The notes beneath the pieces were generated by a model that saw only the letters and a program-made list of their open reading frames with translations, made no database searches and had not been told where the DNA came from. Shown here piece by piece: positions 36,118-44,468 of a stretch of DNA of 64,000 bases. Numbering within the stretch: the stretch's first letter is position 1; each line of letters opens with the position of its first letter. The DNA is from Planotetraspora sp. GP83 (GTDB taxonomy: Bacteria > Actinomycetota > Actinomycetes > Streptosporangiales > Streptosporangiaceae), in the NCBI RefSeq assembly GCF_041262585.1, contig NZ_JBGCBZ010000002.1, forward strand, positions 1 through 64,000, read 5' to 3'. The position numbers and the translations under genes are program-made.

Positions 36118-37986
36118 TCATGCCTGGAGGCGCAGACGCTGATTGAAGTGGTGTCCGGCGCGGAACCGAGCCTCCTCCGCGCTGTAGAACCGGGCGAGCC
36201 TGGTCAGCGCCGCCTGGCTCGCTTCGGGACCGTCGTCGGCGAACGCGCGGCTGCGGGCGAAACTCCGCAGTGGCTCCTGGTAGTAGTACCGGTCCAGGCC
36301 TCCAGGCTCCAGCAGGTGCATGTCCACGAGGGATTCCAGCAGCGCCGAGGTGTCGCCGGGCGGCAGGTCCAACAGGGCCGAAGCGGCGGTGAGCGAGATG
36401 TCCGGCCCATCCGCCAAGGAGAGCAGGCGGAACGCCCTCGCCTGCGTGGGTGACAGCTGCTCCATCGCCGAAGTGTACGGCCGGTCGATGGCCGCGCAAT
36501 CCGGCGGGAGCACTGGCGAGCCAGGGTCGGGCCTGCTGAGCCGTTGCCTCGCCTCCGCGATGCTCCAGCCCGGCCGCGCGGCGATCCGCGCGCCGACCAC
36601 CTGCAGCACCTGCGGCAGGCCGGCGGTGTTCCGGACAATCTCGCGGATGTCCGCCAGCTCCGGGCGCACCCGTTCGATGCCGATGAGCCGTTCCAGCAGG
36701 GCGACCGAGTCGTCCTCGCTCAGCCCGCCCAGCTTCAGCCAGTGCACGTACGCCAGGCCGTACAGCCGCTGCCGCGCAGTGATTATGACCGTGGACCCGC
36801 CCGGGCCGGGCAGCAGCGGCCGCACCTGCTCGGTGTCGCGGGCGTCGTCCAGCACGACGAGCAGCCGGCGGCCGGTGGTCAGCGTCCGCCACAACGCCAC
36901 CCGCTCGCTGAACGACTCGGGCAGCCCCGCGTACGGCACGCCGACGCCACGCAACAGCTCGGCCAGCGGCTCGCCGGCCGCGCCGAGGTCGACGAACAGC
37001 TGACCGTCGGGGAAGCTCGCGGCGACCGCATGCCCGACGTGCACGGCGAGAGTGGTCTTGCCGATGCCGGCGAGCCCCTCGACACCGACCACCGGCACGC
37101 TCGCGTTGGACGGGGTCAGTGCGTCGGCCATACGGTATTTCGTCTCGTCTCGGCCGACGAAGTCCGGCAGGTCAGGCGGCAGCTGCGCGGGGATGCGCGA
37201 CGGAGTCATCGCCGGCGTCGGTGCGACGGGAGCGGCCAGCGCCGGGTCGGACACGAGGATCCGCCGCTGCATCTCCCGCAGGTCCGGGCCGGGGTCCAGG
37301 CCCAGCTCGTCGGCGAGCAGCCGCTGGACCTGCCCGAACACGGCGAGCGCGTCGGCCTGCCGGCCCGACCGGTACAGCGCGAGCATCAGCAGCTCGCGTG
37401 GCCGTTCCCTCAGCGGCTGCTCGGCGATCACCTCTGCCAGCTCGGCGGCCGCCTCGACGGGCCTGCCCGACTCGATGTCGGCCGCCGCCAAGTCTTCGAT
37501 CACCGTGAGCCGCAACTGCCCGAGCCTGGTGCGTTCGAATTCGGCGTACTCACCGTTGACGCCGGCGAGCGGCGTGCCGTGCCACAGATCGAGCGCGGTG
37601 CGCAGCGCGGTCGCCGCGGCGGGCGCGTCACCGGCGCGGCGGGCCTCCCTGGCGACCCCGAGCTGCCGATGGAACTCGGTGAGGTCGAGCTCCTCGGCCC
37701 GCACCGCGTAGCCGCCGCCGAGCGACTCGATCACCGTCGCCGGGTGGCCGGGATCGAGCACGCGGCGCAGCCGGGACACGTACGAGCGGACCATGCCGAT
37801 CGCGGCGGGCGGCGGAGCGCCGCCCCAGATCGCCGTGACCAGTTGGTCGGCCGAGGCGGGCGTGCCCGCCTGTAGCAGGAGGATCGCGAGGATCGCCCGC
37901 TGCTGCGGGGAGCCAAGCTCGATCTCAACGTCCCCGCGCCAGGCACGCACCGGACCGAGCAGCTCGAACCGCAGCTGTTCGCCCAC
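36118..37986 (-). CDS. AfsR-like regulator: SARP DNA-binding/BTAD + NB-ARC NTPase, no TPR array
   Basis: MGEQLRFELLGPVRAWRGDVEIELG..., BTAD, then P-loop GVEGLAGIGKTTLA and hhhhDD (LLVVLDDA). Confidence 0.85.
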   Translation of the reverse strand: MGEQLRFELLGPVRAWRGDVEIELGSPQQRAILAILLLQAGTPASADQLVTAIWGGAPPPAAIGMVRSYVSRLRRVLDPGHPATVIESLGGGYAVRAEELDLTEFHRQLGVAREARRAGDAPAAATALRTALDLWHGTPLAGVNGEYAEFERTRLGQLRLTVIEDLAAADIESGRPVEAAAELAEVIAEQPLRERPRELLMLALYRSGRQADALAVFGQVQRLLADELGLDPGPDLREMQRRILVSDPALAAPVAPTPAMTPSRIPAQLPPDLPDFVGRDETKYRMADALTPSNASVPVVGVEGLAGIGKTTLAVHVGHAVAASFPDGQLFVDLGAAGEPLAELLRGVGVPYAGLPESFSERVALWRTLTTGRRLLVVLDDARDTEQVRPLLPGPGGSTVIITARQRLYGLAYVHWLKLGGLSEDDSVALLERLIGIERVRPELADIREIVRNTAGLPQVLQVVGARIAARPGWSIAEARQRLSRPDPGSPVLPPDCAAIDRPYTSAMEQLSPTQARAFRLLSLADGPDISLTAASALLDLPPGDTSALLESLVDMHLLEPGGLDRYYYQEPLRSFARSRAFADDGPEASQAALTRLARFYSAEEARFRAGHHFNQRLRLQA

Positions 37987-39757: not shown

Positions 39758-40702
39758 TCAGCTCGTGAACTTGTCGTGGTTGGCGGCGAGCCAGGTGGCG
39801 AAGTCCTGCAGCCGCGGGTTGAGCTCCCGCACCTTTTCGGGGTCGCGGACGCCGGCGAACACGTCCTCGTGCTCGGCGTAGAAGAAGAACATGTTCGCGG
39901 CCTCGTCGGCGATCGGGGACGGCCACCCGCGGACCACGTCGAGACTCGCCGGCCGGTAGAGGACGGGCTCGCCGAGCTCTTTGCTGAACGCGGCGGCGTA
40001 CTCCTCGCCGGTCAGGTTCTCGCCGGAGATGTTGATCGTCTGCCCGACCAGCTCCGTGCCGCGCTTGAAGATGCCGAACGCGGTGCGGCCGATGTCCTCG
40101 GACGCGATCCCGGGGAGCTTCCGGTCGCCCATCGGGAGATTGATCGCGAGGGTGCCGTCCTCACCGCGCGCCGGGCGGAATAAGTCGAGGAACGCCTCGA
40201 AGTAGAACGTGGTGGACAGGAACGTGGTCGGCACACCCGCGTCGGTGAAGAACGAGTCGGCCTCGCCCTTGCCGTCGAAGTGCGGCACCTTGTACTTGCC
40301 GTGCAGCGTCGGGACGCGATCGTCGTGGAGCGGGATGTGCTCGCGGGTGTCGGGCAGCGTCGACCAGATGACGTGCTGGAGCCCCGCGGCCTTGGCGGCC
40401 GCGGCCATCGCGCGGGCCTGGGCCTGCTCACGCTCGACGGACTGCAGCTCCCAGAACGCGGTGACGAAGTAGGCGCCGTACGCGCCCTGCAGTGCCCTCG
40501 TCAGGCCTGCCTCGTCGTCGGCGTCCGCGGCCACGACCTCGGCGCCGCGGTCGGCCAGCGCCTTCGCGGCGTCCGAGTCGGGCCGCCGCGTGAGCGCGCG
40601 GAGGGCGAACCGTCCCGCCGGGTCATCGAGGATGGCACGGGCCAGACCGCCACCCTGCTGGCCGGTGGCGCCGACCACGGCAATGATCTTCTTGTCGATC
40701 AT
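39758..40702 (-). CDS. NmrA-family NAD(P)-binding protein
   Basis: KIIAVVGATGQQGGGLARAIL... Rossmann motif; NmrA-like length and pattern. Confidence 0.75.
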   Translation of the reverse strand: MIDKKIIAVVGATGQQGGGLARAILDDPAGRFALRALTRRPDSDAAKALADRGAEVVAADADDEAGLTRALQGAYGAYFVTAFWELQSVEREQAQARAMAAAAKAAGLQHVIWSTLPDTREHIPLHDDRVPTLHGKYKVPHFDGKGEADSFFTDAGVPTTFLSTTFYFEAFLDLFRPARGEDGTLAINLPMGDRKLPGIASEDIGRTAFGIFKRGTELVGQTINISGENLTGEEYAAAFSKELGEPVLYRPASLDVVRGWPSPIADEAANMFFFYAEHEDVFAGVRDPEKVRELNPRLQDFATWLAANHDKFTS

Positions 40703-41015
40703 CGGGACCTACTCCCCTGGTCACCTGCGATCGGTCGTTCCGATCACGTCCCCATGGAAGCGCCGCGGCATTGACACCTCGTGCACGTCTGCTTCATGTG
40801 CCGTCCACGCCTGTCGCGCCGCCTTGCCGCAGTCGCGAAGTCTGGTGTGTGTGTGCGTGACACCGGCGCCATGGCGGGCACCATCAACATCAACAGCATC
40901 ATCCGCGGGCGCTTCCAATCCGCCTCGCTCGCCTATGCGGCCTTCGCTCCCACCGCCGGCCGGGCATCGAGCTCGACGCCCCACCGGTCCGGGTGGGCGG
41001 CACGCCGATGGGGGG

Positions 41016-42612
41016 TCATGACTCCTGCGGAACCTGTAGCGCAGCCAGATTGTCGCGCGTTATCCGCGTGTAAGGGTGATCACAACCGAGCACCCTTTCC
41101 ATCTCCGTGATCGTCTGCTTGTAGAGCGCGGTCGCCCCATCCAGCCTGCCCGCCGACCGATACGCCCCCGCGAGATTGCTCTTGGACATCAGCGTGTCCG
41201 GGTGATCCGCCCCGAGCACCCGCTCCCGGTCCGCCAGCGTGCGCTCGTGCAACCCGATCGCCTCGTCCGACCTCCCCGCCGACCCGTAGGCATTCGCCAG
41301 GTTGTTCTGCGACATCAGCGTGCAGGTATGGTCCGCACCAAGCACCCGCTCCCGGTCCGCCAAGGTCCGCTCGTGCAACCCGATCGCCTCATCCAGCCTG
41401 CCCGCCGACCAATACGCCCCCGCGAGATTGCTCTTCGAGGTCAGCGTGTCCGGGTGATCGGCACCCAACAGGCGATCCTGATCTGCCAGCGTCCGTTCGT
41501 GCAACCCGATCGCCTCGTCCAGCCTGCCCGCTGACCGGTACGCATAAGCCAGATTGTTCCGCGACATCAGCGTGTCCTGATGATCTATCCCGAGCACCCG
41601 CTCCCGGTCCGCCAAGGTCCGCTCGTGCAGCCCGATCGCCTCATCCAGCCTGCCCGCCGACCGATACGCACGGCTGGGCGTAGCTCAACCGAGGCGGGCC
41701 GACGATGCGGGTGGCAGCCAACGCCAGTGCCAGGGGCAGGTGATCCACCTCGTCGATGAGCGCCCGGGCACCGGGACCGTCGGCCGGGCCCACTCGCTCA
41801 TGGAGGAACGCCAGAGCCTCGTCGGTGGTGAAGCGGTCCACGGGGACCATGTCGGCCAGGGTGCCGAACTCCTGACGATTGGTGGTGATGAGCACCTGAG
41901 CATGGCCGACAGTCGGCAGATATTCGCTCAGCAGGTCGGGGTCCACGGCGTTGTCGAAAATAATGAGGTACGGCACGCGGCGGCCTTCGAGCCATTCCCG
42001 CACCCGATGCCCAGTACGGATGGAGTCCTCACCCAAGATGCGGATATTGAGCGCTTGGGCCATCGTGTCAAGACCGCTGAACAGTTGTTCCTGCGTTTCC
42101 GCCGTAAGCCAGGCGACCGGAACACCCGAGTCCAGCGACGATCGCGCATAAGCCGCGGCAAGCTGCGTTTTGCCGACTCCACGCGCTCCGGTGAGCGAAC
42201 ACACGGCCGCTGGACGACCTCCCGCCAGCGCCTCGCCGATTCGCTCCATCAGGTCGGTTCTCCACTGGAACGCCTTGGGCGCCCGAGGCAGATATCCGAT
42301 CAACGGCGGCACACCGGCAAGCTGCGCGGCTCCTACGTCCAATGCGAGCGGTGTGCCTTCGGGAGTGAATTGAGGTGGATCCGCCGGCGCTTTCTCCTCA
42401 GCGAGGTCAAGGCGTGAACGGCGGCCGACCCTCTCGGAGGCCTCCTTGCCGACCCAGAGACTCGTCGGAGTAGCCAGGACTCCGACCACCAGACCCACGA
42501 TGATGCCGGTCTCATCCAGTGCGAGGCCGTACACGTCGCAGACCCACCAGGAACCTATGGCGGCGAGCACTGGTAGGACCGTGGCGACCAGCACCCTCAG
42601 CGCCCGTCGCAC
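41016..42612 (-). pseudogene. TM-anchored NB-ARC + TPR STAND protein split by a frameshift near 41641-41685 (NB-ARC ORF 41641-42612, TPR ORF 41016-41684)
   Basis: NB-ARC part has a TM helix, P-loop GARGVGKTQLA and LIIFDNA. The TPR reading frame continues without a start codon upstream to 41684 (..ATPSRAYRSAGRLDEAIGLHERTLADRERVLG..) and overlaps the NB-ARC stop at 41641-41643 in a different frame. Confidence 0.6.
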
Positions 42613-42788
42613 TGTTCATCACCGCCCGGGAACCCGCCTGTATGCCGTGACAACGGGCTCGTGCGAGCCCAAGTTCCCCCCGACGTCAGCATAGGGCGGC
42701 GAGTCACCAAGGTGAAGGTCACCAACGGCGGGTCTCAGCCGGCCGGCGGCCCGGTCGTGGGCCGTTGCCGCAAGGGAGAGTCAGCCTG

Positions 42789-43463
42789 TCACGACGGCGG
42801 CAGGCCGAAGAGTGTGAAGAACCGCTGCCCCGCGGCCTGGTCCCCGGTCACCTCCAGGACCCCCGCGTCGACGGCCGACGCGACGGTCGCGTCAGTGAAG
42901 ATCAGGCTCAACAGCGTCGGGACGTCGGCGCGGGCGGTGGCGTCCACGTCCGCGCGCGCCCCTCGCACGACGCTGATCGACGCCGGCTCCACCTCGACAT
43001 CGAACGAGTCCACGCCGACGAGGAGACGGACGGCCATCGTCGGGACTCCGTCCGCGGGCGGGAGATAGAGCGCCTTCAGCAGCAGCATGAAGGCGTCGGT
43101 GCTCATGTCGGCACCGTCCTTCCCCTGGATGTGCGCTCCCCAGCGGGCCAGGGCGATCAGTACGGCCTCCAGTTGCCGTCCTCGCTCCGTGAGCTCGTAC
43201 ACGTGCGTGCTCACTGGCGGGCCGAGCTCCACCCGGCGCACGACGCCGTTCCCCTCCAGCTCCCTGAGTCGCTGGCTCAGCACGTTCTGGCTCGCCTTCG
43301 GCAAGCCGCCGCGCAGGTCCCTGAAGCGCTTGGGGCCGAACATCAACTCGCGGGCGATCAGCAGGGCCCACCGCTCACCGATGACGTCCATGGCGAGGGC
43401 GGCTCCACAGGCGTCCTCATAGCTCCTCTGCGACACAGATCGAGGATACGCACGAGCACTCAT
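42789..43463 (-). CDS. HxlR-family winged-helix transcriptional regulator with a C-terminal extension
   Basis: ...CGAALAMDVIGERWALLIARELMFGPKRFRDLRGGLPKASQNVLSQRLRELEGNGVV. Confidence 0.7.
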   Translation of the reverse strand: MSARAYPRSVSQRSYEDACGAALAMDVIGERWALLIARELMFGPKRFRDLRGGLPKASQNVLSQRLRELEGNGVVRRVELGPPVSTHVYELTERGRQLEAVLIALARWGAHIQGKDGADMSTDAFMLLLKALYLPPADGVPTMAVRLLVGVDSFDVEVEPASISVVRGARADVDATARADVPTLLSLIFTDATVASAVDAGVLEVTGDQAAGQRFFTLFGLPPS

Positions 43464-43507
43464 CAGTGCTACTCTCGCACTCATTGGTCCTAATCTAGGA
43501 GTAAGCA

Positions 43508-44230
43508 ATGGACGCACTGCTTGAAAAGGTGCTCGAAGCCCACGGCGGGCTCGACCGCTGGAAGAACCTCTCGACCATCAGCGCACGGATCACGTACGGT
43601 GGCCCATTCTGGGAGTTCAAGGGCCACGCCGACTTCGCCGGCGCCGACACCCTGGAGGCGAACCTCCAGGAGCAGCACTCCCGCCAGGTCCAGGAGTCGA
43701 CCGGCCGCACGGTCGTCTTCGACAAGAAGGCGAACCGGATCACCGTCACCGGAGCGGACGGCGAGATCATCGAGGCGCTCGACGACCCGCGCGCGAGCTT
43801 CGACGGCTACACCCCGGACACCAGGTGGAGCCTCGCGCGGATCGCCTACTTCCGCAGCTACGCCACCTGGCACTACCTGGTCGAGCCGTACGTCTTCACC
43901 TGGCCCGGCGTCGATGCGCATGAGGTGGAGCCGTGGACGGAGAACGGGCAGACCTGGCGCGTCCTCAGCGTGACCTTCCCCGACTCGATCGACACCCACT
44001 GCGAGACGCAGCTCTACTACTTCGACGAGGCCGGTCTGCTACGCCGGATGGACTACCAGCCCGTCGTCAACGGCCAGACGCCGGTCGCCCACTACATCCG
44101 CGAATCCCGGACGTTCGACGGGATCACGGTGCCGATCAAGCGGCACATCCACGTCCGTAACGAGGATCGGACACCGGACCTGTCGTGGATCCCGATCACA
44201 CTGGACCTCGGCGAGGTCAGGTTCAGCTGA
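43508..44230 (+). CDS. hypothetical protein, divergent from the HxlR regulator
   Basis: 240-aa ORF with normal codon usage and no motif I recognise. Confidence 0.4.
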   Translation: MDALLEKVLEAHGGLDRWKNLSTISARITYGGPFWEFKGHADFAGADTLEANLQEQHSRQVQESTGRTVVFDKKANRITVTGADGEIIEALDDPRASFDGYTPDTRWSLARIAYFRSYATWHYLVEPYVFTWPGVDAHEVEPWTENGQTWRVLSVTFPDSIDTHCETQLYYFDEAGLLRRMDYQPVVNGQTPVAHYIRESRTFDGITVPIKRHIHVRNEDRTPDLSWIPITLDLGEVRFS

Positions 44231-44468
44231 CGGGCTGACGCCGGCCTCGCGAGCAGGCCGCGCGCGAGACTCGAACAACTCCTCGTACTGCCCGAGGTCG
44301 AAACCGAACAGCGGGAACGACTCCGTGAAGGAAACCACGGCCGAGGATGATCTCGGCCCGGCCCTGGGACACACCGACAGCCTCGGACCGACGCCTCCTT
44401 GCCACCGTTTGGGCGCTTTCATATGGTGTCGGGAAAGCGGTTTCCGAGGCGGCGCGGAAGAGGACAGC

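What the first reader, a model, noticed from the sequence alone, without database searches (positions are those of the whole stretch)
41016..42612. Membrane-anchored NB-ARC/TPR STAND gene interrupted by a frameshift
An N-terminal TM helix plus NB-ARC NTPase (P-loop GARGVGKTQLA) is followed, in a different frame, by four near-identical 42-aa TPR units. The TPR frame has no start codon and overlaps the NB-ARC stop. It is either a pseudogene, a sequencing error in the highly repetitive TPR DNA, or programmed frameshifting. A TM-anchored STAND protein is an unusual signalling architecture in its own right.
Basis: seen in the sequence. Interest (0 to 1): 0.5.

Follow-up and report, generated by a model that had tools for sequence, protein, structure and literature searches.

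The report
Broken membrane-anchored NB-ARC/TPR gene remnant
This is the wreck of an ordinary actinobacterial NLR-like sensor gene that lost about 0.7-0.8 kb from its middle in an out-of-frame deletion, so it is a pseudogene and neither a simple frameshift nor a new signalling design.

Summary
ORF1 (42612-41641, 323 aa) encodes two N-terminal hydrophobic helices plus an NB-ARC NTPase with the P-loop GARGVGKT. A stop-free frame shifted by +1 (41684-41016) encodes five 42-aa TPR_10 units and has no credible start codon.

The interruption is not a one-base frameshift. Homology of ORF1 to every relative stops at residue 311-313. TPR-repeat DNA starts sharply at 41670/41669.

The closest intact relative is a 785-aa Nonomuraea angiospora protein. 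It is 60% identical to ORF1 and 61-65% identical to the TPR part. It carries 230-270 residues between these two points: a winged-helix domain with an xHRLVQ motif, a helical spacer and 1-2 TPRs. These residues are absent from the whole 64-kb window.

The remnant lies in a 3.4-kb strain-specific segment. A 118-bp relic of a GNAT gene sits beside it, and the flanks are 94-95% identical to another Planotetraspora genome.

Membrane-anchored N-termini are common in this clade: about half of the closest cluster representatives have one.

Verdict: a decayed member of a known family (FxSxx_TPR-like NB-ARC/TPR STAND). Interest is low.

The parts
41674..42612 (-). 5' remnant: ORF1 residues 1-313, comprising the 2-TM N-terminus, a Pro-rich linker, the NB-ARC nucleotide-binding domain and the ARC1 helical domain up to '...HLPLALALAATRIVGPPRLSYAQ'
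   Evidence: Pfam NB-ARC and NCBIfam NF040586 positions 2-193. 60% identity to P0050 residues 1-297. All phmmer alignments end at query residues 300-316, mostly 303-313.
42538..42594 (-). Predicted TM helix 1 (residues 7-25). The GTG start at 42612 keeps it. The RefSeq 309-aa start would cut it.
   Evidence: KD 19-mer mean 2.08. Aligned with the N-termini of P0052, P0064 and P0118. Both annotations appear.
42451..42507 (-). Predicted TM helix 2 (residues 36-54), preceded by the conserved loop motif LD..G
   Evidence: KD mean 1.96. Conserved in P0050, P0052, P0054, P0118 and P0064.
42166..42189 (-). Walker A / P-loop GARGVGKT. Walker B YLIIFDNA is at 41947-41970, VLITTNR at 41875-41895 and HLPLAL (GLPL-like) at 41725-41742. 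All are intact.
41644..41673 (-). Ten junk codons (PCVSVGGQAG) ending ORF1. They are TPR-repeat DNA read out of frame. The stop is at 41641-41643.
41669..41674 (.). Deletion breakpoint. NB-ARC homology ends at Q313 (41674-41676). TPR-repeat DNA homology begins at 41670/41669.
   Evidence: Register alignment of repeat units. Protein alignments. tblastn of P0050: 1-297 maps to 42591-41680 and 529-737 maps to 41669-41043.
41016..41669 (-). 3' remnant: TPR array with one 5'-truncated unit, four full 42-aa units (the last divergent) and a C-terminal tail with the natural stop at 41016-41018. No start codon of its own lies outside the repeats.
   Evidence: TPR_10 x5 at E=1e-59. NF040586 positions 482-692. 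61-65% identity to the P0050 TPRs. The protein collection does not contain this ORF with any of the three start variants tried.
40965..44393 (.). 3.43-kb strain-specific segment holding the remnant, an HxlR-family regulator (42789-43517, -) and a 240-aa ORF with no Pfam match (43508-44230, +)
   Evidence: blastn against Planotetraspora sp. A-T 1434 (L001): flanks are 94-95% identical and this segment has no counterpart. GC is 0.65-0.68 against 0.70-0.75 in the flanks.
40847..40964 (+). 118-bp internal relic of a GNAT acetyltransferase gene, 52 bp from the TPR stop codon
   Evidence: 93% identical to L001 5622-5739, inside an intact 192-aa GNAT ORF there

Best explanation
The locus is a pseudogene. 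It is the two ends of one ancestral gene of about 750-800 aa with the architecture 2TM - NB-ARC - winged helix - helical spacer - TPR, an actinobacterial NLR-like STAND of the FxSxx_TPR-like clade. An illegitimate, out-of-frame internal deletion of about 0.7-0.8 kb fused codon ~313 (just after the GLPL motif of ARC1) to the middle of a TPR unit. This removed the winged-helix domain with its xHRLVQ (MHD-like) motif, the spacer and 1-2 TPRs. Translation from the original start now yields a 323-aa membrane-anchored NBD-ARC1 stub ending in 10 junk residues. The TPR array is left in the +1 frame without a start codon. How the intact family works is inferred, not shown. The TPR array senses a ligand, nucleotide exchange in the NB-ARC drives oligomerisation, and clustering of the N-terminal TM hairpins perturbs the membrane. 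This would resemble TM-effector bacterial NLRs, CC-NLR resistosomes and HeLo/Bell domains. The stub lacks both the sensor and the autoinhibitory winged-helix domain, so it cannot perform this cycle. The intact motifs, the stop-free TPR frame and the coding-like GC3 indicate that the deletion is recent.
For: (1) NCBIfam NF040586 (830 positions): ORF1 matches positions 2-193 and the TPR frame matches 482-692, leaving roughly 290 positions unmatched between them. (2) The intact relative P0050 (WP_357739482.1, Nonomuraea angiospora, 785 aa) aligns 1-297 to ORF1 8-311 at 60% identity and 529-737 or 571-782 to the TPR frame at 61-65%. Both halves are thus about equally distant from one intact protein. 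(3) A multiple alignment with five intact relatives shows a single gap covering the WH region (YPRGVA..., xHRLVQ) and the spacer. (4) The DNA breakpoint is sharp: repeat-unit identity starts at 41670/41669 and nothing upstream matches any unit. (5) tblastn with P0050 298-500 finds nothing in the window at E<0.1. (6) No start codon precedes the first complete repeat, and TPR homology runs up to the breakpoint. The three candidate TPR proteins are absent from the protein collection, while ORF1 is annotated. (7) Locus history: the flanks are 94-95% identical to Planotetraspora sp. A-T 1434, but the 3.43-kb segment is strain-specific and abuts a 118-bp GNAT relic, so the site has suffered other deletions or replacements. 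(8) The relatives listed have a median length of 721 aa and a median of 595 residues from the P-loop to the C-terminus, against about 180 in ORF1, whose P-loop starts at residue 142 of 323.
Against: No read-level data are available and no close (>62%) orthologue exists, so neither the ancestral sequence nor the exact deleted length can be reconstructed. The register of the TPR remnant against intact arrays is ambiguous (230 or 270 aa missing). All NTPase motifs of ORF1 are intact and the TPR frame has no internal stop. A still-functional stub is therefore not excluded, nor is a junction created by recombination between two paralogues rather than a deletion within one gene. RefSeq and GenBank both keep ORF1 as a protein.
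Confidence: 0.85

Rival explanations
1. Assembly or sequencing artefact. The real genome has an intact gene, and the assembler collapsed or mis-joined the repetitive TPR DNA.
For: TPR units are 67-87% identical at DNA level, with near-identical stretches of about 78 nt between units 0 and 2. Many database relatives from metagenome assemblies show frameshift-like tails. The source is a draft assembly with a 423-kb contig.
Against: A repeat collapse joins repeat to repeat. Here one side of the junction is unique NB-ARC sequence, and the missing part is mostly unique WH/spacer sequence. A one-base error cannot remove at least 690 nt. The neighbouring GNAT relic shows that real deletions occurred at this locus.
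Confidence: 0.05
2. A functional truncated or split system. The 2TM-NBD-ARC1 stub is expressed and retained, for example as a sensor-less regulator or decoy of paralogous STANDs. A TPR-only protein made from an internal start (GTG 41597 or ATG 41567) might work with it in trans.
For: Walker A, Walker B, sensor and GLPL motifs are all intact. The TPR frame is stop-free for 222 codons with GC3 of 0.83. NCBI annotates ORF1 as a protein. Short NB-ARC-only entries exist among the relatives.
Against: ORF1 ends in 10 residues of out-of-frame repeat DNA. The TPR homology begins mid-unit, upstream of any start codon. No relative is split at this point. The split copy inspected in Actinosynnema has an in-frame stop at a different site in the WH domain and retains everything. 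In the other inspected copy, from a metagenome, the 294-aa NB-ARC ORF ends in a frameshift-like tail and is followed by separate 165- and 150-aa ORFs, the latter with TPR matches. The winged-helix domain is an integral part of every STAND module (established knowledge of the family). There is no conservation in the sister strain.
Confidence: 0.08
3. Programmed +1 ribosomal frameshifting joins the two frames into one protein.
For: The TPR frame overlaps the ORF1 stop by 44 nt and is +1 relative to it.
Against: The fused product would still lack the 230-270 aa WH/spacer present in all intact relatives and would contain junk residues. The overlap (GCTACGCCCAGCCGTGCGTATCGGTCGGCGGGCAGGCTGGATGA) has no recognisable +1 shift site of the prfB type (read directly). 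All intact relatives are single continuous ORFs.
Confidence: 0.01

Closest known systems
WP_357739482.1 'tetratricopeptide repeat protein', Nonomuraea angiospora (P0050, 785 aa), and similar 2TM-NB-ARC-TPR proteins of Nonomuraea spp. and Amycolatopsis mongoliensis (P0052, P0054, P0145)
   Same: Same N-terminal two-helix hydrophobic hairpin with the LD..G loop. Same NB-ARC, 60% identical through the GLPL region. Same 42-aa TPR_10/12 units, 61-65% identical.
   Different: The window copy lacks the part corresponding to about residues 298-528/570 of P0050 and is out of frame across the junction. The genomic context is not syntenic.
NCBIfam NF040586, FxSxx-COOH system tetratricopeptide repeat protein (NB-ARC + TPR)
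   Same: It is the best-scoring curated family for both halves. P0050 (383.5 bits) and P0054 (304.1 bits) pass its 300-bit cutoff.
   Different: The window pieces score 133 and 170 bits, and an artificial in-frame join scores 294 bits; all are below the cutoff. The ten flanking ORFs scanned against Pfam gave no hit suggestive of an FxSxx-COOH precursor, radical-SAM or peptidase gene. The N-terminal 2TM module is outside the model.
Bacterial NLR-related STAND defence proteins (bNACHT, Avs) and the NB-ARC/TPR NLR-like proteins of filamentous Actinobacteria
   Same: Tripartite logic of N-terminal effector, STAND NTPase and C-terminal repeat sensor. TM segments are a listed module in bNACHT proteins. 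Highly similar internal TPR repeats are a noted hallmark of this class (papers read).
   Different: This is the NB-ARC (AP-ATPase) clade, not NACHT. No PADLOC defence model matches it. No function has been tested for this subfamily, and the copy here is broken.
AfsR-type large SARP regulators (BTAD-NB-ARC-TPR)
   Same: Weak NB-ARC similarity (NF053617, 31 bits). A SARP with an NB-ARC domain lies 3 kb away at 36118-37986.
   Different: There is no BTAD/OmpR DNA-binding domain; the N-terminus is a TM hairpin. The score is far below the cutoff of 1430 bits.

Membership tests
STAND NTPase, NB-ARC (AP-ATPase) clade | Walker A P-loop GxxxxGK[T/S] | tested here: met
   GARGVGKT, residues 142-149, 42166-42189. 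Pfam NB-ARC 25.9 bits against a cutoff of 23.5.
STAND NTPase, NB-ARC (AP-ATPase) clade | Walker B (hhhhD[D/N]), the RNBS-B/sensor-1 region and a GLPL-like motif in ARC1 | tested here: met
   YLIIFDNA, VLITTNR and HLPLAL are aligned with the same motifs in five intact relatives.
STAND NTPase, NB-ARC (AP-ATPase) clade | Winged-helix (ARC2) domain carrying the MHD-type histidine after ARC1 | tested here: not met
   ORF1 homology ends at residue 313. Relatives have YPRGVA...xHRLVQ here. The Pfam match covers only profile positions 2-174 of 248. tblastn finds the segment nowhere in the window.
NF040586 FxSxx-COOH system TPR protein | Whole-protein score at or above the curated 300-bit cutoff | tested here: not met
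   ORF1 133.4 bits, TPR frame 170.3 bits, artificial join 294 bits. The intact relative P0050 scores 383.5 bits.
NF040586 FxSxx-COOH system TPR protein | Genomic association with FxSxx-COOH precursor and maturation genes | tested here: inconclusive
   The ten flanking ORFs scanned against Pfam gave only unrelated families or, for one, no family (SARP, FMN reductase, luciferase-like monooxygenase, NmrA, HxlR, GMC oxidoreductase, aldehyde dehydrogenase, DUF2332, SDR). The whole window and genome were not scanned with the Fxs models.
Kinesin-light-chain-type TPR (TPR_10/TPR_12) sensor array | Tandem 42-aa units matching TPR_10 | tested here: met
   Five TPR_10 stretches at E=1e-59. 126-nt tandem period. 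The closest solved relatives of the P0050 TPRs are kinesin light chains.
Membrane-anchored (TM-effector) bacterial NLR-like protein | N-terminal transmembrane helices upstream of the NTPase | tested here: inconclusive
   Two hydrophobic 19-mers with KD of about 2.0, conserved in relatives. Only hydropathy was available. No dedicated TM predictor or experiment was used.
Programmed ribosomal frameshift gene | The two frames together encode the contiguous full-length protein of the family, with a shift site | tested here: not met
   230-270 residues are missing between the frames. No shift motif is present in the 44-nt overlap.

The most novel reading that the evidence does not exclude
The deletion product is not dead. 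On this reading, the 2TM-NBD-ARC1 stub keeps every NTPase motif but lacks the autoinhibitory winged helix and the TPR sensor. It would be expressed and retained as a sensor-less membrane NTPase that modulates or poisons oligomerisation of paralogous NB-ARC/TPR receptors, a bacterial analogue of truncated NLR regulators.
Probability: 0.06. Interest if true: 0.35.

Novelty: new member of a known kind. Interest (0 to 1): 0.12.

Why it matters
It matters little beyond annotation. ORF1 (WP_370017889.1 / MEZ0071275.1) should be flagged as the 5' fragment of a pseudogene. The 323-aa start fits the family better than the 309-aa RefSeq start. The case is a clean small example of how accessory NLR-like genes of filamentous actinobacteria decay in variable genome spots. 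It also shows that an apparent frameshift between domains should be checked for missing domains before resequencing or recoding is invoked. The intact 2TM-NB-ARC-TPR subfamily is untested experimentally and could be a membrane-acting cell-death or defence receptor. This window, however, holds only a broken copy.

Tried and rejected
- Exact look-up of P0001 in the contig index found nothing, so the caller's gene table for the source contig could not be read.
- The word-indexed protein search found no relative above 48% identity and none covering the N-terminus. The exhaustive HMMER search was needed to find P0050 and the 2TM subfamily.
- PADLOC gave no defence-system match for either ORF.
- The promoter/terminator scan of 40600-43000 found nothing.
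- No direct or inverted repeats bound the 3.43-kb segment, so there is no sign of a mobile element.
- P0050's neighbourhood is not syntenic and gave no clue to function.
- The PDB sequence search matched only the TPRs (kinesin light chains) and no solved NB-ARC relative.
- Rejected as genes: the plus-strand ORFs 41076-41534 and 41740-42417, which are antisense shadows of the high-GC coding strand.
- Rejected: a naturally split orthologue at the same point. The split copies inspected are disrupted elsewhere and in other ways.
- Structure prediction was not run. It would not change the verdict.

Full report
**What is there.** The feature lies on the minus strand. ORF1 runs 42612..41641 (323 aa, GTG start). 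The downstream frame is open from 41684 to the stop at 41016-41018 (222 codons) and is +1 relative to ORF1.

ORF1 has two strongly hydrophobic segments, at residues 7-25 and 36-54, with Kyte-Doolittle 19-mer means of 2.08 and 1.96. A Pro-rich linker follows, then an NB-ARC NTPase. Pfam NB-ARC scores 25.9 bits against a cutoff of 23.5 and matches profile positions 2-174 of 248. The motifs are GARGVGKT, YLIIFDNA, VLITTNR and HLPLAL.

The second frame gives five TPR_10 matches at E=1e-59. They correspond to a 126-nt tandem repeat, x4.3, at 41132-41670. The minor corrections are strand, two TM segments rather than one, and five TPR units.

**Why it is not a simple frameshift.** The NCBIfam model NF040586 (FxSxx_TPR, 830 positions) matches ORF1 over positions 2-193 and the TPR frame over positions 482-692. 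The middle of the model is unmatched.

Intact homologues have about 235-250 residues between the 'LPLALAQAA..L.Y..YL' motif and the first TPR. An exhaustive HMMER search of 1.84 billion cluster representatives found 13,361 relatives at E-values up to 0.001. The relatives listed have a median length of 721 aa. Every alignment to ORF1 ends by residue 300-316, mostly 303-313.

The best intact relative is P0050, WP_357739482.1, a 785-aa 'tetratricopeptide repeat protein' of Nonomuraea angiospora. Its residues 1-297 align to ORF1 8-311 at 60% identity. Its residues 529-737, or 571-782 when anchored at the C-terminus, align to the TPR frame at 61-65% identity.

A multiple alignment with five intact relatives shows one clean gap. 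It covers the winged-helix region (YPRGVA..., xHRLVQ, which is the MHD-like position), a helical spacer and one or two TPRs. tblastn with the missing segment finds nothing in the 64-kb window.

At DNA level the breakpoint is sharp. In register with the other units, repeat identity begins at 41670/41669, and nothing upstream resembles a TPR unit. On the other side, homology to relatives ends at 'RLSYAQ', with Q313 at 41674-41676. The last ten codons of ORF1 (PCVSVGGQAG, 41673-41644) are TPR DNA read out of frame.

The lesion is thus an out-of-frame internal deletion of about 0.7-0.8 kb.

**Context.** The source is Planotetraspora sp. GP83. ORF1 is annotated as WP_370017889.1 (309 aa) and MEZ0071275.1 (323 aa). 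Three start variants of the TPR ORF are absent from the protein collection.

I used the adjacent NmrA-family gene to fetch the syntenic locus of Planotetraspora sp. A-T 1434 (L001):
- Window 36124-40822 matches L001 12578-7879 at 95.4% identity.
- Window 44394-47485 matches L001 3035-3 at 94.1% identity.
- In between, L001 carries ABC-F, GNAT, CGNR zinc-finger and alpha/beta-hydrolase genes.
- The window keeps only a 118-bp internal GNAT relic (40847-40964, 93% identity). It then has a 3.43-kb unrelated segment (40965-44393) with the STAND remnant, an HxlR-family regulator gene and a 240-aa ORF.

No terminal repeats flank the segment. Its GC content is slightly lower than that of the flanks. 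The remnant therefore sits in a spot of repeated gene loss and replacement, which fits pseudogenisation. Pfam scans of ten flanking ORFs gave no hit suggestive of Fxs precursor or maturation genes.

**Rivals.**
- Assembly artefact is unlikely. A repeat collapse joins repeat to repeat, whereas here unique NB-ARC DNA abuts the array and the missing piece is mostly unique sequence.
- Programmed +1 frameshifting is excluded in practice. The fused product would still lack a domain present in all relatives, the 44-nt overlap has no shift site, and intact relatives are single ORFs.
- A 'naturally split' architecture is not supported. In Actinosynnema sp. NPDC053489 a relative is split by an in-frame stop inside the winged helix ('YPRGVA*AVLLS') with nothing missing. 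In a metagenome copy, the 294-aa NB-ARC ORF ends in a frameshift-like tail and is followed by separate 165- and 150-aa ORFs, the latter with TPR matches. These are other decayed or mis-sequenced copies, disrupted at other points.
- A residual function of the 323-aa stub cannot be excluded. All NTPase motifs are intact, and the TPR frame is still stop-free with GC3 of 0.83. This mainly indicates that the deletion is recent.

**How the intact family probably works (inference).** It has the tripartite layout of NLR-like STAND proteins of filamentous Actinobacteria, with NB-ARC/TPR and highly similar internal repeats (paper read). Ligand binding by the TPRs would release autoinhibition. Nucleotide exchange would drive oligomerisation. 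The clustered N-terminal TM hairpins would act on the membrane. TM modules are listed among the domains of bacterial NACHT proteins (paper read).

N-terminal hydrophobic segments are common in this clade. 70 of 141 closest representatives with a recognisable P-loop have one and 38 have two. 14 of the 150 listed hits, including the window's own protein, start their alignment with ORF1 within its first 20 residues, so it runs through the TM region. The 'unusual architecture' is thus a recurrent, if unstudied, subfamily.

PADLOC has no model for it. By sequence, solved structures match only the TPRs (kinesin light chain type).

**Verdict.** The 'frameshift' is an internal deletion. Interest is low.

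Noticed in passing
window 40847-40964 (+): A 118-bp internal relic of a GNAT acetyltransferase gene. It is 93% identical to the middle of an intact 192-aa GNAT ORF in Planotetraspora sp. A-T 1434 (L001 5362-5940). The CGNR zinc-finger and alpha/beta-hydrolase genes that lie between GNAT and NmrA in L001 are absent from the window; only 24 bp remain (40823-40846).
   Followed up: yes
window 36118-37986 (-): A 622-aa SARP-type regulator (Trans_reg_C + BTAD + NB-ARC) without TPRs. The orthologue in L001 (10716-12584) is also 622 aa, so it is probably a genuine medium-sized SARP. Similarity to L001 stops about 6 bp beyond its stop codon (window 36124), which marks another synteny break.
   Followed up: partly
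window 42571-42612 (-): RefSeq starts ORF1 14 codons downstream (309 aa), which truncates the first hydrophobic helix. The 323-aa GenBank start, with RR before the helix, matches the N-termini of intact relatives (P0052, P0064, P0118).
   Followed up: yes
window 42789-44230: An HxlR-family regulator (42789-43517, -) and a divergently overlapping 240-aa ORF with no Pfam match (43508-44230, +). Both share the strain-specific 3.43-kb segment with the STAND remnant. Their origin and their relation to the remnant are unknown.
   Followed up: no
L082 4001-6232 (Actinosynnema sp. NPDC053489): A related NB-ARC/TPR gene annotated as two proteins (275 + 466 aa). It is one reading frame interrupted by a single in-frame stop in the winged-helix domain ('YPRGVA*AVLLS').
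   Followed up: yes
window 41016-41669 (-): The TPR array has a 252-nt higher-order period (86% matches, against 77% for 126 nt). Alternate units are more alike (unit 0 against unit 2: 87%), which suggests duplication of two-unit blocks or gene conversion.
   Followed up: partly
L081 4040-7282 (Nonomuraea angiospora): Upstream of the intact relative P0050 lie two small ORFs (52 and 170 aa), an ABC transporter ATPase and an S26/S24-type signal peptidase. A large BTAD-NB-ARC-TPR SARP lies further upstream. A possible link to peptide export was not examined.
   Followed up: no
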